Of a stretch of 50,958 nucleotides of DNA, positions 7,213 through 48,455 are shown piece after piece (within the stretch, counting starts at the first letter, position 1; every line of letters starts with the position of its first letter). The position numbers and the translations under genes are program-made. The notes under the pieces were generated by a model that saw only the letters and a program-made list of their open reading frames with translations, was not told the DNA's origin and did no database searches. The DNA is from Promethearchaeota archaeon (GTDB lineage: Archaea; Asgardarchaeota; Lokiarchaeia; Sigyniarchaeales; SOKP01): the NCBI GenBank assembly GCA_029838195.1, contig JALGVJ010000026.1:1-50958 (forward strand), in the 5' to 3' direction.

Positions 7213-8448
7213 ATGGATAATAAAAAGAATTTAAAAAAAATTAAAGAACATACAACTAATTTTCTCATTCATGGAGAAGATTATAATTCTACTCCCTCAA
7301 AATCCATGAAGGTTTTCTATAACAAGAAAATGATCCTAAACCGAGATATTACTTCTCTTGCAATAAATGCATACGCTCAAATGTTTAATAAAAACGCTCT
7401 TACCGTTTTAGATTCGATGGCTGCAACGGGAATAGGAGCTATTCGTCTCATTAAGGAATGTAAAAATATTTCTACCGTTTATATTAATGATATTAATCCT
7501 TTAGCCATTGAAATGGCTCGTGAAAACTTAAAGTTAAATGATTTGCCAAATCATAATTTAAAGATACGCATTTTTAATGAAGACGCCAATTTATTATTTA
7601 ACAAAATTAAAAAATGGGCTCATGAATCCAAAAAGAAAAATATTCACTTTCCGGATATTATTTTAATTGATCCCTTTGGGACTCCTAATCTCTATCTTGA
7701 TGCAGCTTTTAAAGCCATAAAGAAAGAGAAAGGGTTAATCTGCATAACCGCAACAGATACACCTGTTTTATTTGGGGTCCGTCCTAAGGCGTGTTATAGA
7801 AAATATTTAGCCAAACCATTACACGTAGAATATTGTAAGGAAATTGGTAGTAGAATTTTGATTTGTTTTTCATCAAAAATTGCAAATATTAATAATTTAG
7901 GAGTGGCCCCCCTCTTAACTTTTTATTCCAATCATTTCGTGCGCATCTTTCTCTTGACTTTTAAAAATAAAAATCAAATTCATGAAAACTTTAAAAATTA
8001 CGGTTATATCCTTCATTGTCAGTGTAATCATCGATTTATACTTGAGGACCCATTAAACCTTCCAGATATGTGCCCCGCTTGCTATGAGAAAAATCATTTT
8101 AAATTGGCGGGCCCTCTCTGGCTAGGAGAATTACATGATGTGGCTTTTTTAGAAAGAGTGAGAACACTTAATGAAACAGAACATTTTCCCAATAAAAAAA
8201 AAATTGCAAAAATCCTTGAACATGCTAAGGCGGAAATAGGGATGCCTCCTTATTATTACAATATTCATAAAATCTGTCAAGAATTAAATATATCTACCAT
8301 TCCTAAATTGGAGGCTCTGATTAACCTCATCCAATCTAAAGGATTTAAAGCTACTAGAACACATTTCGATTTCGTGTCCATTAAAACAACCATGAGCCAT
8401 GAACAGCTTAAAGTTACATTATCCGAAATCGCTTCTCAAATTAGGTGA
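7213..8448 (+). CDS. trm1: tRNA (guanine26-N2)-dimethyltransferase
   Basis: VFYN..M.LNRD, DSMAATGIGAIR, IDPFGTP, TATD, Zn-binding CQC/CPAC, GPLWLG. Confidence 0.95.
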   Translation: MDNKKNLKKIKEHTTNFLIHGEDYNSTPSKSMKVFYNKKMILNRDITSLAINAYAQMFNKNALTVLDSMAATGIGAIRLIKECKNISTVYINDINPLAIEMARENLKLNDLPNHNLKIRIFNEDANLLFNKIKKWAHESKKKNIHFPDIILIDPFGTPNLYLDAAFKAIKKEKGLICITATDTPVLFGVRPKACYRKYLAKPLHVEYCKEIGSRILICFSSKIANINNLGVAPLLTFYSNHFVRIFLLTFKNKNQIHENFKNYGYILHCQCNHRFILEDPLNLPDMCPACYEKNHFKLAGPLWLGELHDVAFLERVRTLNETEHFPNKKKIAKILEHAKAEIGMPPYYYNIHKICQELNISTIPKLEALINLIQSKGFKATRTHFDFVSIKTTMSHEQLKVTLSEIASQIR

Positions 8449-30904: not shown

Positions 30905-32332
30905 TTAAATCTTTTTTAAGTTGAAATGGTATAATTCTTTTAATCTCACGACATCTCCCGCCTTTATCTCATGTTTTTCTCTATTCTTTTCAATTCCCAC
31001 GATCACGTATCCTTTTGTTCCAAATGAGTCTAAAATTCTTGTATAAGGAGATTCTAATTTTCTACCAACTATTTTTTTTGCACCTTCAGCACTTTGAGCT
31101 AAACCACTACAAATAATGCCTTGAGAATGATTTGGATTGATTATTTTTCCTCTCTTAACCTTGAATCTATAAAATAAAGGAGGCGTTTGATGAATCTTAA
31201 TCACTTCCGCAGCTCCCATTATTCTAAGCGAGGTGGGAGGAAGATCAAGTCTACTTATTAATAATGTGGTTTTTTTTTTATCTATAAGAACATTTTCATT
31301 TAGCCAGATAATTGCTTGAAATCTCTCAATTTTATTTGAAACATCAGTTTTTAATCGCTTACTTTCTTCGATTAATTCATAGGGATAAATATAGCCTGCT
31401 GTGGTAAACATTCCAATAGTAACATGTATTTGGCTCCCAAATCGTACCTCGGGTTTAAATAATTTGTTTTTTTCCATTCTCACTTCTATAATAGCCCCAT
31501 ATTCAAACTCTTCAGGATTAGATGCTACATAACATCCCCTATAGAGTTTCTTTACATTTATATTTTTTAAATTTAGCCCAACTCGATCTCCGGCGATAGC
31601 CCGTTCCATGTTTTGATGAAAAATTTGTATGTTTTTCACGCGTCCTTCTTGTTTTAAAGGTAGAATCATGACCTTTTGATTTAGTTTTACCTCTCCTCTT
31701 AAGATGGTGCCCGTTAAAATAGTTCCCATTCCTTTAATGTTAAAATAGTGATCTATGGGCATGACAAGATCATCCTTAATATCTCGGTGGATTTTTAATG
31801 CTTTGATGACTTCATGAATCCCTTTTTTAAGTTCTTCAAAACCAATTCTATTTTTAGCGGAAACGGGAAAGATTGGAATATTTTTGCCAAATGAAGTCGA
31901 ACTAAAAAATTTCTTGATTTTAATTATTTCTTCCTCAAGATTTCCCTTAAACAAGTCTATTTTATTGAGAACAACAATGAGATTTTTGATTTTTAATGCC
32001 TCAATCATTATTAAATGCTCTCCTGTTTGGATCTGGGGGCCTTTATTGATATCTATGACAACCAAAGCACAGTCTATAATTTCAACAGAAGAAGCGCTAA
32101 TTTTTATTAAATCGGCATGGCCGGGGCCATCTACTAGGGTGACTAAATAGTCCCCTAAAACAAAACTAGTAAATCCTAAATCTATTGTTATCCCTCTTTC
32201 TTTACTCTGAGGATGGGCATCTATTCCCGCAGTTGATATTATTTCAGTGAGTGCTTCAGCGACAGCTGTCTTCCCAGAATCAATATGACCAAAAAGTCCA
32301 ATAGAAACTGAGATTTTATTCTTTAGATCCAT
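30905..32332 (-). CDS. selB: Selenocysteine-specific elongation factor (archaeal/eukaryotic type)
   Basis: GHIDSGKT, PQSKERGITIDLGF, DGPGHADL, NKID, EF-Tu domain II; lies near tRNA-Sec. Confidence 0.93.
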   Translation of the reverse strand: MDLKNKISVSIGLFGHIDSGKTAVAEALTEIISTAGIDAHPQSKERGITIDLGFTSFVLGDYLVTLVDGPGHADLIKISASSVEIIDCALVVIDINKGPQIQTGEHLIMIEALKIKNLIVVLNKIDLFKGNLEEEIIKIKKFFSSTSFGKNIPIFPVSAKNRIGFEELKKGIHEVIKALKIHRDIKDDLVMPIDHYFNIKGMGTILTGTILRGEVKLNQKVMILPLKQEGRVKNIQIFHQNMERAIAGDRVGLNLKNINVKKLYRGCYVASNPEEFEYGAIIEVRMEKNKLFKPEVRFGSQIHVTIGMFTTAGYIYPYELIEESKRLKTDVSNKIERFQAIIWLNENVLIDKKKTTLLISRLDLPPTSLRIMGAAEVIKIHQTPPLFYRFKVKRGKIINPNHSQGIICSGLAQSAEGAKKIVGRKLESPYTRILDSFGTKGYVIVGIEKNREKHEIKAGDVVRLKELYHFNLKKI

Positions 32333-36947: not shown

Positions 36948-37040
36948 GGCCCTTGCTAGTGGGAGTGGTCTCCAACACCAGGCTTCAAACCTGGTTATCC
37001 TGCGAAGGGATAGCGGTTCGATTCCGCGCAGGGGCCGCCA
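36948..37040 (+). tRNA. selC: tRNA-Sec (UCA), 9/4 fold, encoded CCA
   Basis: 9-bp acceptor GGCCCTTGC/GCAGGGGCC; long D stem; ACCAGG-CT-TCA-AA-CCTGGT anticodon arm; long variable arm; 4-bp T stem GCGG/CCGC; G73-CCA. Confidence 0.96.
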
Positions 37041-37642: not shown

Positions 37643-39004
37643 ATGGTAGATTTCTCTAAAATCATTGAATATTTTGAAACCATGCCAATCCCTCTAAATA
37701 TGCTTAATAGAGGGCAATTAGTACTAAATGAGTTTCTCAAACCCTTGAAAAAAATTTTTGAACAAAAAGCCGTGCCGGAGGAGGGATGGTCAGACGAGCA
37801 GATTTCTTTTCTCTTACAATTACTTTCTAACATGGATACTGATAAGGATGGAAATGCCGCTCGAGTGGGAGAGCGGGAAGCTCGTATCGCAACCAAATTA
37901 CACTTGCAAACTTCAGGAGGATTTTGTCATGGGATCGGAAGGAGCGGATATCTCACGGCCCCTCAGCCTAAAGCCCCTGGCGGCTCGGTAATGTATGAAC
38001 TTGCAAACTATTTAGCTCGCCATTTTTTGAAGAGATTTGGGCTTCCGAATATTAAAAAAGCCATCGTGGTGCCATTATGCACCGGCATGTCCTTGTCTCT
38101 CTGTCTTAGTGCTCTTAAACCTGATTGGAATGATCCTCACACCGCTCATAAACGCTCGATTTTAATCCCTCAAATTGATCATTCCTCGATTTTAAAAGCA
38201 TGTGATTTTCTTGGATTAAAAAAGATTATCATAAAAGGCAAGGTAATGGGAGATGCAGTAAGAGTTCCTATGGAAGATATTCAAGAAAGTTATGATGATA
38301 AATGTTATGCAATCCTCTCCATCACCAGCTTTTTTCCTCCCCGCGAATCCGATGATATAAAGGAAATTAGCAAGTTTGCTCAAGAGCACGATTTAGTTCA
38401 CGTTGTAATTAACGCTTATGGTGTCCAGAGTTCTGAATGGATGAAATTAATACGTTCGGCTATCGATGCAGGAAGAATCGATGCCATTATCCAATCTTCC
38501 GATAAAAATTTCCTCACGCCAGTTGGAGGGGCTATAATCGCTACACCCCACAATGAAATCATGGAAAAAATAAGCCAAACCTATGCTGGCCGAGCAAATG
38601 CAACCCCAATCGTCCAATTCCTTGCATCAGCTCTTTCCCTAGGGATAAAAGGATATGAAAATTTATTGAAAGAACAACAAGACAACCGGAAGTTATTAGA
38701 AGAAAAATTAACGGAGTTAGCTAACAAACTAAAGGAACGTATCTTAAACGTGTTTAACCCTATTGCTATTGCGATGTCTCTTTCCAATCTAAATCCAAAA
38801 AAATTAAATGCTTTAGGAGGTGCTCTTTATAATTTAAGAGTTACGGGACCGCGCGTTCAAGACCCTAATACCAAACCTTTTGGTACATGTTGCGACCATT
38901 ATCCTACTCCTTACATAGTGATGAATGCTGCTATTGGAGCACGAAAAGAAGATGTTATTCGCTCCATCCTTCAATTAGAAAAAGCTTTACACCAAATTAA
39001 ATGA
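37643..39004 (+). CDS. spcS: O-phosphoseryl-tRNA(Sec) selenium transferase (SepSecS)
   Basis: GEREAR, HGIGRSG, QPKAPG, TGMSL, NAYG, PLP lysine QSSDKNF. Confidence 0.95.
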   Translation: MVDFSKIIEYFETMPIPLNMLNRGQLVLNEFLKPLKKIFEQKAVPEEGWSDEQISFLLQLLSNMDTDKDGNAARVGEREARIATKLHLQTSGGFCHGIGRSGYLTAPQPKAPGGSVMYELANYLARHFLKRFGLPNIKKAIVVPLCTGMSLSLCLSALKPDWNDPHTAHKRSILIPQIDHSSILKACDFLGLKKIIIKGKVMGDAVRVPMEDIQESYDDKCYAILSITSFFPPRESDDIKEISKFAQEHDLVHVVINAYGVQSSEWMKLIRSAIDAGRIDAIIQSSDKNFLTPVGGAIIATPHNEIMEKISQTYAGRANATPIVQFLASALSLGIKGYENLLKEQQDNRKLLEEKLTELANKLKERILNVFNPIAIAMSLSNLNPKKLNALGGALYNLRVTGPRVQDPNTKPFGTCCDHYPTPYIVMNAAIGARKEDVIRSILQLEKALHQIK

Positions 39005-40090: not shown

Positions 40091-40298
40091 TGGTCCATCG
40101 GGGATTTACGGCAAATCTGGACGCCAGATCCTTTATTTTATATCTTTCGAACCCCGGATCTCGGGTTGTCCTCGCCCGAGAGAGCTTCATTTATTTCATG
40201 TCCTCTCGGATGTCTTATAAGACCCGCGCTTGTTGGCCAAGCGGACACACCCGTTAACCATTCCAGAGAGGTAACCCTCTTGGCTGAGCTAATGGACC
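40091..40298 (-). tRNA. tRNA-Ile (UAU), interrupted by about four introns
   Basis: Removing 40261..40281, about 40232..40254, about 40168..40215 and about 40106..40146 yields a 75-nt cloverleaf: GGTCCAT TA GCTC AGCCTGGTTA AAGC G CGGGT CT-TAT-AA ACCCG AGATC CGGGG TTCGAAT CCCCG ATGGACC A. Confidence 0.8.
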
Positions 40299-44570: not shown

Positions 44571-45635
44571 ATGAACGAAATATTAGTCATTGACGGAGCA
44601 ATGGGAGAAGGAGGAGGCTCAATTATTCGTTTGAGCGTGGCATTTTCGGTCTTATTTCAAAAACCGATTAAAATCATGAATATACGGGCAAAACGCTCGA
44701 AACCAGGATTGCGATTGCAACATGTCTTAGGAATTAAAACATTGGCAAACTTAACAAAAAGTAAAATAAGTAAATGTGAAGTTGGTACAACAGAACTTAC
44801 CTTTATACCATCAAATGCTAAAGGAGTTGTTCAAGATCAACTCAATGTAGAAATTAATACTGCTGCAAGTTTGGGCTTGCTACTCCAACCCATCCAAATT
44901 GCTGCTATGGGGTTTGAAAACGCAGAAAAAGTAGAATTACTGCTAAAAGGTGGTGCTACATTTGGAAAATGGGCTCCCAGCATTAACTATTTAGAACACG
45001 TCACTTGGGAATTATTTAAAAAAGCGGGATTAACTGTCCATGTTGAAATTAAACGACATGGATTCTATCCTAAAGGAGGGGCGTTGGTACGTGCATCGAT
45101 ACTTGCTCCAAGAGAAAAATTAAAACCGCTCCATCTAACAGATTTAGGGTCATTTGATACAATTTATGCTGAAATCACGTGTTCTAATAGCTTGAAAAAA
45201 CCAAGAGTAGCAGAGCGAATTCATGATTCCATTGTCTACAATTTGAAAAAAAAAATTAGAAAGAATCATGAAATTAAATATAAATACGTGCATGCTTTTA
45301 GTTCTGGAGTGGGAGCATGCTTGTGGGCAAAAACCGATACAGGAGCCATCATTTCAAGCGGGACGATCCTTGGGGAAAAAGGTATTTCCTCCGAAGAAAT
45401 CGGTAAGAGAGCAGTTCAAGAGTTCTTGAAATATATCCAACATGAAGTTCCGGTAGATAATTATCTGAGCGATCAATTAATTCCCTTAATGGCTTATTCA
45501 AATGAACCCTCAACGATTAAGGTATTAGAAATCACTCAACATGCAAGAACAAACATGACTCTCTTAAAAAAATTCACGCCTCATGAATATAAAATCTCGA
45601 AAAAAAATGATTATTTTCTCATTCAATATCTTTAA
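44571..45635 (+). CDS. rtcA: RNA 3'-terminal phosphate cyclase
   Basis: IDG..GEGGG, NIRA.R.KPGL..QH, GFYPKGG, VD.YLSDQL, catalytic T.HARTN. Confidence 0.93.
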   Translation: MNEILVIDGAMGEGGGSIIRLSVAFSVLFQKPIKIMNIRAKRSKPGLRLQHVLGIKTLANLTKSKISKCEVGTTELTFIPSNAKGVVQDQLNVEINTAASLGLLLQPIQIAAMGFENAEKVELLLKGGATFGKWAPSINYLEHVTWELFKKAGLTVHVEIKRHGFYPKGGALVRASILAPREKLKPLHLTDLGSFDTIYAEITCSNSLKKPRVAERIHDSIVYNLKKKIRKNHEIKYKYVHAFSSGVGACLWAKTDTGAIISSGTILGEKGISSEEIGKRAVQEFLKYIQHEVPVDNYLSDQLIPLMAYSNEPSTIKVLEITQHARTNMTLLKKFTPHEYKISKKNDYFLIQYL

Positions 45636-48322: not shown

Positions 48323-48455
48323 GCAACGGTAGCGCAGCCTGGTAACGCGCTGGCTTGGAGTTGATGAAAATGACTAAAAAGCCAGTGTCCATTTGGACTC
48401 GGGGGTTCAATTTTTCCAACATGTCGTTGATAAGGAATAAATCCCTCCCGTTGCG
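48323..48455 (+). tRNA. tRNA-Ser (GGA) with two introns (37/38 and 58/59)
   Basis: Acceptor GCAACGG/CCGTTGC-G73; long variable arm GTCC/GGAC; introns 48361..48379 and 48411..48440 each form BHB motifs. Confidence 0.92.

What the first reader, a model, noticed from the sequence alone, without database searches (positions are those of the whole stretch)
40216..40226. UAU anticodon: eukaryote-like decoding of AUA
Seen: minus-strand CGGGT-CT-TAT-A with A73, C4 and U12, consistent with Ile. Established: most archaea read AUA with agmatidine-modified tRNA-Ile(CAU) made by TiaS, while eukaryotes use tRNA-Ile(UAU), intron-containing in yeast and human. Inference: this lineage may have made the same switch. 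Caveat: the 37/38 BHB has one mismatch, so the anticodon depends on correct splice sites.
Basis: partly seen in the sequence, partly recalled or inferred. Interest (0 to 1): 0.7.

Follow-up and report, generated by a model that had tools for sequence, protein, structure and literature searches.

The report
Four-intron Asgard tRNA-Ile(UAU), no TiaS
This is a real isoleucine tRNA gene, hidden from standard finders by four introns, whose UAU anticodon reads the common AUA codon in a Loki-type Asgard archaeon whose whole class lacks TiaS, the enzyme most archaea need for that codon; the strategy is already known from a few other archaea.

Summary
Observation confirmed. The minus strand 40298..40091 holds a 208-nt tRNA gene split by four BHB-type introns: two in the D loop, one at 37/38 and one at 59/60. 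Splicing gives a 75-nt cloverleaf that ARAGORN calls tRNA-Ile(tat). The anticodon TAT lies at 40219..40217.

The splice sites rest on relatives that lack single introns and on compensatory changes in the anticodon stem across the intron. The one-mismatch BHB at 37/38 is also real.

Interpretation partly supported.
- TiaS was not found in this genome, nor in any of 161 genomes of its class. It is present in 171 of 301 genomes of the phylum.
- The UAU anticodon arm occurs in 137 of those 161 genomes, mostly once per genome.
- AUA is frequent (23.5 per 1000 codons) and aligns with Ile/Val/Leu, not Met, in two protein families.

'Eukaryote-like' is only an analogy. The same TiaS-free strategy is published for Nanoarchaeum, Korarchaeum and ARMAN. 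I found only one TruA-family pseudouridine synthase gene, so there is no extra Pus1-like copy.

I could not complete the inventory of CAU tRNAs, because elongator tRNA-Met was not found. A hidden tRNA-Ile2 is therefore not formally excluded.

This scan has already reported the same thing on other DNA (66 notes, at least 54 genomes). I found no paper reporting it for Asgard archaea. It is a new member of a known kind.

The parts
40091..40298 (-). whole tRNA-Ile(UAU) gene, 208 nt, G1 = 40298, discriminator A73 = 40091, no encoded CCA
40282..40298 (-). exon 1: acceptor 5' strand, U8 A9, D stem 5' strand, start of D loop
   Evidence: intron-free D arm in relative L009/L035
40261..40281 (-). intron 1 (21 nt) in the D loop, HBh' motif (H 4/4, h' 5)
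40254..40260 (-). exon 2: 7 nt of the D loop (UGGUUAA)
40231..40253 (-). intron 2 (23 nt) in the D loop. The equivalent register 40232-40254 gives the same product and the better motif (H 4/4, h' 6)
   Evidence: relatives without this intron (L035, L041)
40216..40230 (-). exon 3: D stem 3' strand, G26, anticodon stem 5' strand, loop C32-A37; anticodon TAT = 40219..40217
40168..40215 (-). intron 3 (48 nt) at 37/38. hBH motif with central helix CUUA/GAGG (3 of 4 pairs) on top of the 5-bp anticodon stem; contains a CGAGAG/CUCUCG hairpin
40146..40167 (-). exon 4: A38, anticodon stem 3' strand, variable loop AGAUC, T stem 5' strand, T loop UUCGAA
40105..40145 (-). intron 4 (41 nt) in the T loop at 59/60. 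Relaxed hBH (H 3/4, h 5); contains an AUCUGG/CCAGAU hairpin
   Evidence: intron-free T arm in relative L007
40091..40104 (-). exon 5: U60, T stem 3' strand, acceptor 3' strand, A73

Best explanation
The gene encodes the AUA-reading isoleucine tRNA of a Lokiarchaeia-type Asgard archaeon. The 208-nt transcript is probably cut at four relaxed bulge-helix-bulge sites by the archaeal splicing endonuclease and joined by RtcB (inferred). This gives a 75-nt tRNA with the anticodon loop CUUAUAA. Its UAU anticodon pairs directly with AUA, so neither a CAU-anticodon tRNA-Ile2 nor the C34-agmatidine enzyme TiaS is needed. Shown here: the gene, its exon structure by comparison with relatives, the lack of TiaS in the genome and its class, the heavy use of AUA, and that AUA behaves as Ile. 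Inferred: charging by IleRS, the actual splicing, and whatever modification of U34 keeps the tRNA from reading AUG.
For: The spliced product is called tRNA-Ile(tat) with a full cloverleaf. Relatives lacking single introns fix the exon borders: an intron-free D arm in G006 and an intron-free T arm in G020. The anticodon stem, split by about 48 nt, is 100% paired in 28 distinct homologues, and pair 28:42 takes four forms (AU 19, GC 4, UA 3, CG 2). Two different BHB registers in different genera both give the loop CUUAUAA. All four introns have BHB-like motifs. The genome holds three EndA-domain genes and one RtcB. TiaS: no hit in the own genome (96.6% complete) with PF08489 or with a full-length Asgard TiaS protein. 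It is found in 0 of 161 genomes of the class against 171 of 301 in the phylum. The UAU arm pattern is present in 137 of 161 class genomes and 37 of 40 high-quality ones. Outside the order it matched only two genomes. AUA makes up 23.5 per 1000 codons and 24% of Ile codons. Columns under the own ATA codons read I 75%, V 17%, L 7%, M 0.1% in SepSecS. In distant SelB homologues they read I 32%, L 17%, V 16%, M 4%, the same profile as the ATT columns.
Against: I found only one CAU tRNA, the initiator type at C69:17043-17118. I did not find elongator tRNA-Met at all. The tRNA inventory is therefore incomplete and a hidden tRNA-Ile2(CAU) cannot be excluded by the tRNA scan. The genome is a 94-contig assembly with 7.9% estimated contamination. 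The 37/38 and 59/60 BHB motifs each have a mismatch in the central helix. In this copy an alternative site has a better motif but would give a 5-nt loop. One TiaS-positive genome of the phylum, G277, also carries an odd intron-less UAU tRNA, so TiaS and a UAU tRNA are not strictly exclusive. Isoleucine identity rests on the anticodon and on codon meaning. The body is only 61% identical to the genome's own tRNA-Ile(GAU). No RNA data are available.
Confidence: 0.85

Rival explanations
1. The UAU tRNA coexists with an undetected tRNA-Ile2(CAU) that an enzyme unrelated to TiaS modifies. Under this reading the UAU tRNA is a second reader of AUA, not the only one.
For: My scans failed to find even elongator tRNA-Met, so heavily interrupted CAU tRNAs can escape them. 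One TiaS-positive genome also has a UAU tRNA.
Against: No TiaS in 161 class genomes. The UAU tRNA is kept, mostly as a single copy, in 137 of them. Published TiaS-less archaea lack tRNA-Ile2 as well (PMC3239211, PMC8450103).
Confidence: 0.08
2. The true splice sites differ from those inferred, so the mature RNA has another anticodon loop. One candidate is the better-paired site that cuts after U36 and before A39.
For: That alternative has a 4/4 central helix and a 4-bp outer helix in this copy, against 3/4 for the 37/38 site.
Against: It would leave a 5-nt loop. In the same-genus copy it drops to 3/4. The 37/38 or 38/39 register is the conserved one in 33 distinct homologues and always yields CUUAUAA. 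ARAGORN accepts the inferred product.
Confidence: 0.03
3. The gene is a decaying pseudogene. Four introns and imperfect BHB motifs would mean it is no longer processed.
For: Two of the four BHB motifs have a mismatch. The conserved intron hairpin sequence of the family is not kept in this copy.
Against: All stems are intact. It is the only UAU tRNA found in a genome that uses AUA at 23.5 per 1000 codons. The same-genus genome shares the same BHB mismatch. The gene is kept across the class with compensatory changes.
Confidence: 0.03
4. AUA is reassigned, for example to Met as in many mitochondria, and this tRNA carries that other amino acid.
For: None beyond the formal possibility; no charging data exist.
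Against: ATA columns match Ile/Val/Leu like the ATT and ATC columns, with Met at 0.1% and 3.8%.
Confidence: 0.01

Closest known systems
tRNA-Ile3(UAU) of Nanoarchaeum equitans and Candidatus Korarchaeum cryptofilum (PMC8450103; PMC6000648)
   Same: An archaeal tRNA with a UAU anticodon that replaces the tRNA-Ile2(CAU) route. The Korarchaeum gene also has an intron.
   Different: Those were described as isolated, species-level gains. Here the trait covers a whole Asgard class (0 of 161 genomes with TiaS), and the gene carries four introns instead of none or one.
tRNA-Ile(UAU) of ARMAN-2/-4/-5 (PMC3239211)
   Same: TiaS and tRNA-Ile(CAU) are absent, and the UAU tRNA has an intron at 37/38. That intron was cleaved in vitro by a broad-specificity endonuclease.
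   Different: The ARMAN intron forms a strict hBHBh' motif of 25 nt. Here the 37/38 motif is relaxed with a mismatch, and there are three further introns. The lineage is also different.
Eukaryotic cytosolic tRNA-Ile(UAU) (yeast, human; PMC11912914, PMC8879553)
   Same: A UAU anticodon, an intron next to the anticodon in every copy examined, and an intron that pairs with anticodon-loop bases.
   Different: Eukaryotes make pseudouridine at positions 34 and 36 with Pus1. Here only one TruA-family gene exists and no modification is known. Eukaryotes also read AUA with IAU. Common descent is not shown, since most other Asgard families keep TiaS.
[quoted passage not shown]
   Same: Multiple BHB introns per tRNA gene, with D-arm introns missed by standard annotators.
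   Different: That preprint does not mention UAU, Ile, AUA or TiaS.

Membership tests
TiaS-independent AUA decoder, tRNA-Ile3(UAU) type | Mature tRNA with a canonical cloverleaf and the anticodon UAU | tested here: met
   The spliced 75-nt product is called tRNA-Ile(tat). The loop CUUAUAA is conserved in 33 distinct homologues.
TiaS-independent AUA decoder, tRNA-Ile3(UAU) type | No TiaS gene in the genome | tested here: met
   PF08489 gives 0 hits in the own genome, with controls positive. An Asgard TiaS protein gives 0 hits at E<=1. The class has 0 of 161. The own genome is 96.6% complete, so absence is very likely but not proven.
TiaS-independent AUA decoder, tRNA-Ile3(UAU) type | No tRNA-Ile2(CAU) gene | tested here: inconclusive
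   Only an initiator-type CAU tRNA was found. Elongator Met was not found either, so the scan is not sensitive enough.
TiaS-independent AUA decoder, tRNA-Ile3(UAU) type | AUA codons are in use and mean isoleucine | tested here: met
   AUA is 23.5 per 1000 codons. ATA columns are Ile/Val/Leu-like in SepSecS and SelB alignments.
TiaS-independent AUA decoder, tRNA-Ile3(UAU) type | Aminoacylation by IleRS | not testable with these tools
   Only indirect support: A73, A35, U36 and A37 are present, and C34, the main MetRS determinant, is absent.
Archaeal BHB (endonuclease-spliced) tRNA introns | Two 3-nt bulges separated by a 4-bp helix at each exon-intron pair, in strict or relaxed form | tested here: met
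   I1 H4/h'5; I2 H4/h'6; I3 H3 of 4/h5; I4 H3 of 4/h5. All are relaxed forms.
Archaeal BHB (endonuclease-spliced) tRNA introns | Splicing endonuclease and RtcB ligase are encoded | tested here: met
   Three PF01974 matches and one PF01139 match in the own genome.
Eukaryote-type tRNA-Ile(UAU) with intron-dependent pseudouridine 34/36 | An intron adjacent to the anticodon that pairs with anticodon bases | tested here: met
   All 37 fetched homologous genes have the intron. The helix between U33-U36 and the intron is 93% paired in 28 sequences. In this copy it is CUUA/GAGG.
Eukaryote-type tRNA-Ile(UAU) with intron-dependent pseudouridine 34/36 | A Pus1-type (TruA-family) synthase in addition to the 38-40 enzyme | tested here: not met
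   There is only one PF01416 match in the own genome.
Eukaryote-type tRNA-Ile(UAU) with intron-dependent pseudouridine 34/36 | Pseudouridine at positions 34 and 36 of the mature tRNA | not testable with these tools
   This needs RNA mass spectrometry or chemical mapping.
Self-guiding (H/ACA-like) intron proposed in earlier notes of this scan | A conserved ACA at the 3' end of the anticodon intron | tested here: not met
   Only 2 of 33 distinct homologues, this copy and L008, end in ACA before position 39. The same-genus copy ends in CAA and most others in AAA.

The most novel reading that the evidence does not exclude
The anticodon intron may be more than a passenger. It is present in every copy examined and pairs with the anticodon-loop bases. 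In most of the family it carries a hairpin of conserved sequence (GGACA-UACA ... UGUCC) with compensatory changes. It could therefore be needed for an intron-dependent modification of U34 that stops the tRNA from reading AUG, as the intron of eukaryotic tRNA-Ile(UAU) is needed for pseudouridine 34/36. If so, the Asgard and eukaryotic arrangements would be functionally equivalent and possibly related.
Probability: 0.12. Interest if true: 0.8.

Novelty: new member of a known kind. Interest (0 to 1): 0.45.

Why it matters
Archaea are usually said to read AUA through agmatidine. Here a whole class of Asgard archaea, the group closest to eukaryotes, appears to have dropped TiaS and to rely on a UAU-anticodon tRNA with an intron beside the anticodon, which is the arrangement eukaryotes use. 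This bears on three things. The first is annotation: the gene is invisible to ARAGORN and to the Rfam search at its gathering threshold, so these genomes look as if they had no AUA decoder. The second is how often the CAU/TiaS to UAU swap has happened. The third is which U34 modification protects AUG from misreading. This is not a new mechanism, and most other Asgard families keep TiaS, so it does not by itself show that eukaryotes inherited the trait.

Tried and rejected
(1) ARAGORN with introns allowed and Infernal RF00005 on the whole genome both miss this gene and many others.

(2) I ran several structural scans of my own for CAU tRNAs: T arm plus acceptor pairing, D-arm-anchored, and GC-context. 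They recovered about 45 tRNA genes but only the initiator CAU tRNA. Elongator Met stayed unfound, so I dropped the claim that no tRNA-Ile2 exists. One candidate, C6:41074, turned out to be coding sequence.

(3) The search for related loci with the RtcA protein in genome contigs returned nothing. I took the organism's affiliation from the names on SepSecS homologues instead.

(4) A weak Rfam hit to SscA over intron 3 and exon 4 (25.5 bits against a gathering score of 60, E 0.06) was treated as chance.

(5) Sequence identity to tRNA-Ile(GAU) or to CAU tRNAs of TiaS-positive Asgard genomes was about 70-73% for both. It cannot tell which tRNA the UAU gene derived from.

(6) The ACA-tail / H/ACA idea from earlier notes was tested on this family and not met.

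(7) The neighbourhood of the odd UAU tRNA in G277 showed no viral or mobile-element marker among five ORFs scanned against Pfam.

(8) Names on TiaS homologues (Jord-, Frey-, Bathyarchaeia, and one labelled 'Lokiarchaeia') did not let me map the anonymous families to named Asgard classes.

Full report
THE OBSERVATION

ARAGORN finds only a tRNA-Sec in the window. The Rfam search at gathering thresholds finds the same, and a permissive Rfam search of the region gives only noise.

Read by eye and by script, the stretch 40298..40091 begins with a tRNA 5' end: GGTCCAT, UA, GCUC, AGCC. It ends with CCCCG-ATGGACC-A. The acceptor therefore pairs perfectly and the discriminator is A73. Between these ends lie 208 nt, which means about 133 nt of insertions.

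EXON STRUCTURE

A BLAST search of 40 relatives, followed by a pattern search, brought in about 40 homologous genes. Several of them lack one insertion each.
- G006 has an uninterrupted D arm.
- G020 has an uninterrupted T arm, CGGGG-UUCGAAU-CCCCG.
- Other relatives lack the first D-loop insert.

These comparisons fix five exons: 40298-40282, 40260-40254, 40230-40216, 40167-40146 and 40104-40091. They also fix four introns of 21, 23, 48 and 41 nt. Two are in the D loop, one is at 37/38 and one is at 59/60.

Joined in a script, the exons give a 75-nt RNA. ARAGORN calls it tRNA-Ile(tat) and draws a normal cloverleaf. The D stem has a C13.A22 mismatch that relatives share.

Each intron sits at a bulge-helix-bulge-like motif of the relaxed kind:
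- I1: central helix 4/4, inner helix 5.
- I2: 4/4 and 6.
- I3: 3/4, on top of the 5-bp anticodon stem.
- I4: 3/4, on top of the 5-bp T stem.

The genome encodes three endonuclease-domain proteins and one RtcB ligase. Heavily interrupted Asgard tRNA genes, including D-arm introns missed by annotators, are described in a recent preprint (bioRxiv 10.64898/2026.10.13.758758).

THE SPLICE-SITE CAVEAT

That is correct: CUUA pairs with GAGG, leaving A35.G unpaired. In this copy another site has a better motif, cutting after U36 and before A39. It would leave a 5-nt loop.

Comparison settles the matter. In 33 distinct homologues the intron lies in one of two registers. In one, UUAU pairs with RUAR just before the 3' site. 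In the other, CUUA pairs with UAGG, UAAG or GAGG. Both registers yield the loop CUUAUAA. The same-genus genome has the same GAGG with the same mismatch, and there the alternative site is no better.

On an alignment of 28 anticodon arms with their introns, the two halves of the anticodon stem are about 48 nt apart and paired in every sequence. Pair 28:42 occurs as AU, GC, UA and CG. The anticodon arm, and with it the UAU anticodon, is therefore under selection as a spliced unit.

WHAT THE tRNA DOES

The organism is a Loki-type Asgard archaeon. The neighbouring SepSecS has its best matches in proteins named Promethearchaeota or Lokiarchaeota, and earlier notes of this scan say the same.

TiaS, the enzyme that makes agmatidine on tRNA-Ile2(CAU), was not found in the genome.
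- The Pfam TiaS domain gave no hit, while the four archaeal control genomes did.
- A full-length TiaS protein from another Asgard genome gave no hit.
- The domain is absent from all 161 held genomes of the class, which span 7 families and 30 genera.
- It is present in 171 of 301 genomes sampled across the phylum, including nearly all members of many families.

The UAU anticodon-arm pattern shows the opposite distribution. It is present in 137 of 161 class genomes and in 37 of 40 high-quality ones, mostly once per genome. Outside the order only two genomes matched.

AUA is a common codon here: 23.5 per 1000, a quarter of all Ile codons, and more frequent than AUG.

To test what AUA means, I aligned two proteins of the window with homologues and tallied the residues opposite the own ATA codons.
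- SepSecS (7 columns, 119 homologues): I 75%, V 17%, L 7%, M 0.1%.
- Archaeal SelB (22 columns, 150 distant representatives): I 32%, L 17%, V 16%, M 4%, the same profile as under ATT codons.

AUA is therefore isoleucine. The only tRNA I found that can read it is this one.

LIMITS

My intron-aware scans recovered about 45 tRNA genes, many with a 30-31 nt T-loop intron. They found only one CAU tRNA, of initiator type: A1-U72 with three G-C pairs closing the anticodon stem. Elongator tRNA-Met was not found by any method. The inventory is thus incomplete, and absence of tRNA-Ile2(CAU) is not shown directly. It is inferred from the lack of TiaS.

The assembly has 94 contigs, 96.6% completeness and 7.9% estimated contamination.

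Isoleucine identity is inferred from the anticodon, A73 and the meaning of the codon. The tRNA body is no closer to Ile(GAU) than to CAU tRNAs of other Asgard genomes.

One TiaS-positive genome of another family, G277, also carries an intron-less UAU tRNA with an imperfect T stem. The two systems can therefore coexist.

COMPARISON WITH WHAT IS KNOWN

A tRNA-Ile(UAU) standing in for tRNA-Ile2(CAU) plus TiaS is published for three groups:
- Nanoarchaeum equitans and Korarchaeum cryptofilum (PMC8450103; PMC6000648).
- ARMAN-2, -4 and -5, where the 37/38 intron was cleaved in vitro (PMC3239211).
- Some bacteria (PMC3575796).

Full-text searches found no paper reporting TiaS loss or a UAU tRNA in Asgard archaea. 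The only paper holding both 'agmatidine' and 'Asgard' does not address it, and none combines 'TiaS' with Asgard names. The preprint on Asgard tRNA introns does not mention it either.

This scan has already made the same finding on other DNA: 66 notes in at least 54 genomes. I therefore file it as a new member of a known kind.

The eukaryotic parallel is real as an analogy: a UAU anticodon, an intron always beside it, and an intron that pairs with the anticodon. It is not shown as homology. Most Asgard families keep TiaS, and the genome has a single TruA-family gene rather than an added Pus1.

THE INTRON ITSELF

Across the family the anticodon intron carries a hairpin with a conserved stem and loop start (GGACA-UACA ... 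UGUCC). It is 96% paired and three of its five pairs show compensatory changes.

The copy in this window is an outlier. It keeps a hairpin at that place (CGAGAG/CUCUCG) but not the conserved sequence.

Earlier notes proposed a conserved ACA tail acting like an H/ACA guide. In this family only 2 of 33 distinct introns end that way, so that feature is not met here.

Whether the intron serves a modification step remains open. I give that reading about 12%.

Noticed in passing
window 30905-32332 (-), 36948-37040 (+), 37643-39004 (+): A selenocysteine cluster: archaeal SelB, tRNA-Sec (Rfam 53.9 bits) and SepSecS lie within 8 kb, just upstream of the tRNA-Ile gene. The Lokiarchaeota Sec system is known (PMC4989117).
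   Followed up: partly
window 48323-48455 (+): A second interrupted tRNA gene missed by ARAGORN and Rfam. It is a class II tRNA with anticodon GGA (Ser), a 19-nt intron at 37/38 that contains UGAUGA, and a 31-nt T-loop intron.
   Followed up: partly
window 44571-45635 (+) and 7213-8448 (+): An RNA 3'-phosphate cyclase RtcA and a Trm1-type tRNA methyltransferase are encoded in the same window as the two interrupted tRNA genes.
   Followed up: no
alignment A1 (L002-L047), columns 23-27 with 60-64: The anticodon intron of tRNA-Ile(UAU) has a hairpin with conserved sequence (GGACA-UACA...UGUCC) and compensatory changes across genera. The copy in this window has a different hairpin at the same place.
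   Followed up: partly
L048:1491-1563 (-) = G277:C1: A TiaS-positive genome of another family carries an intron-less tRNA with anticodon UAU. It has an imperfect T stem and no GG in the D loop (Rfam tRNA, 61 bits). The neighbouring ORFs show no mobile-element marker.
   Followed up: partly
G164:C199:7276-7290: One genome of a TiaS-positive family (f11), itself without a TiaS hit, has the Loki-type UAU arm pattern. This may be mis-binning or a real exception.
   Followed up: no
L035 versus L036-L038 (genus g6); L023-L025, L027: tRNA(UAU) genes of the family come with two different acceptor stems, GGUCCAU/GGGCCAU-type and GCUCCCG/GCUCCCA-type. Both occur even within one genus, and some have an A54 T loop. 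This hints that the gene was replaced or recruited more than once.
   Followed up: no
own genome G000, whole: No elongator tRNA-Met gene could be found by ARAGORN, Infernal or my structural scans. It is either unassembled or interrupted in a way none of them handles.
   Followed up: partly
G000:C38:15415-15488 (-): The genome's tRNA-Ile(GAU) is intron-free and has an unusual T loop, AUCGAAG, with A54 instead of U54.
   Followed up: no
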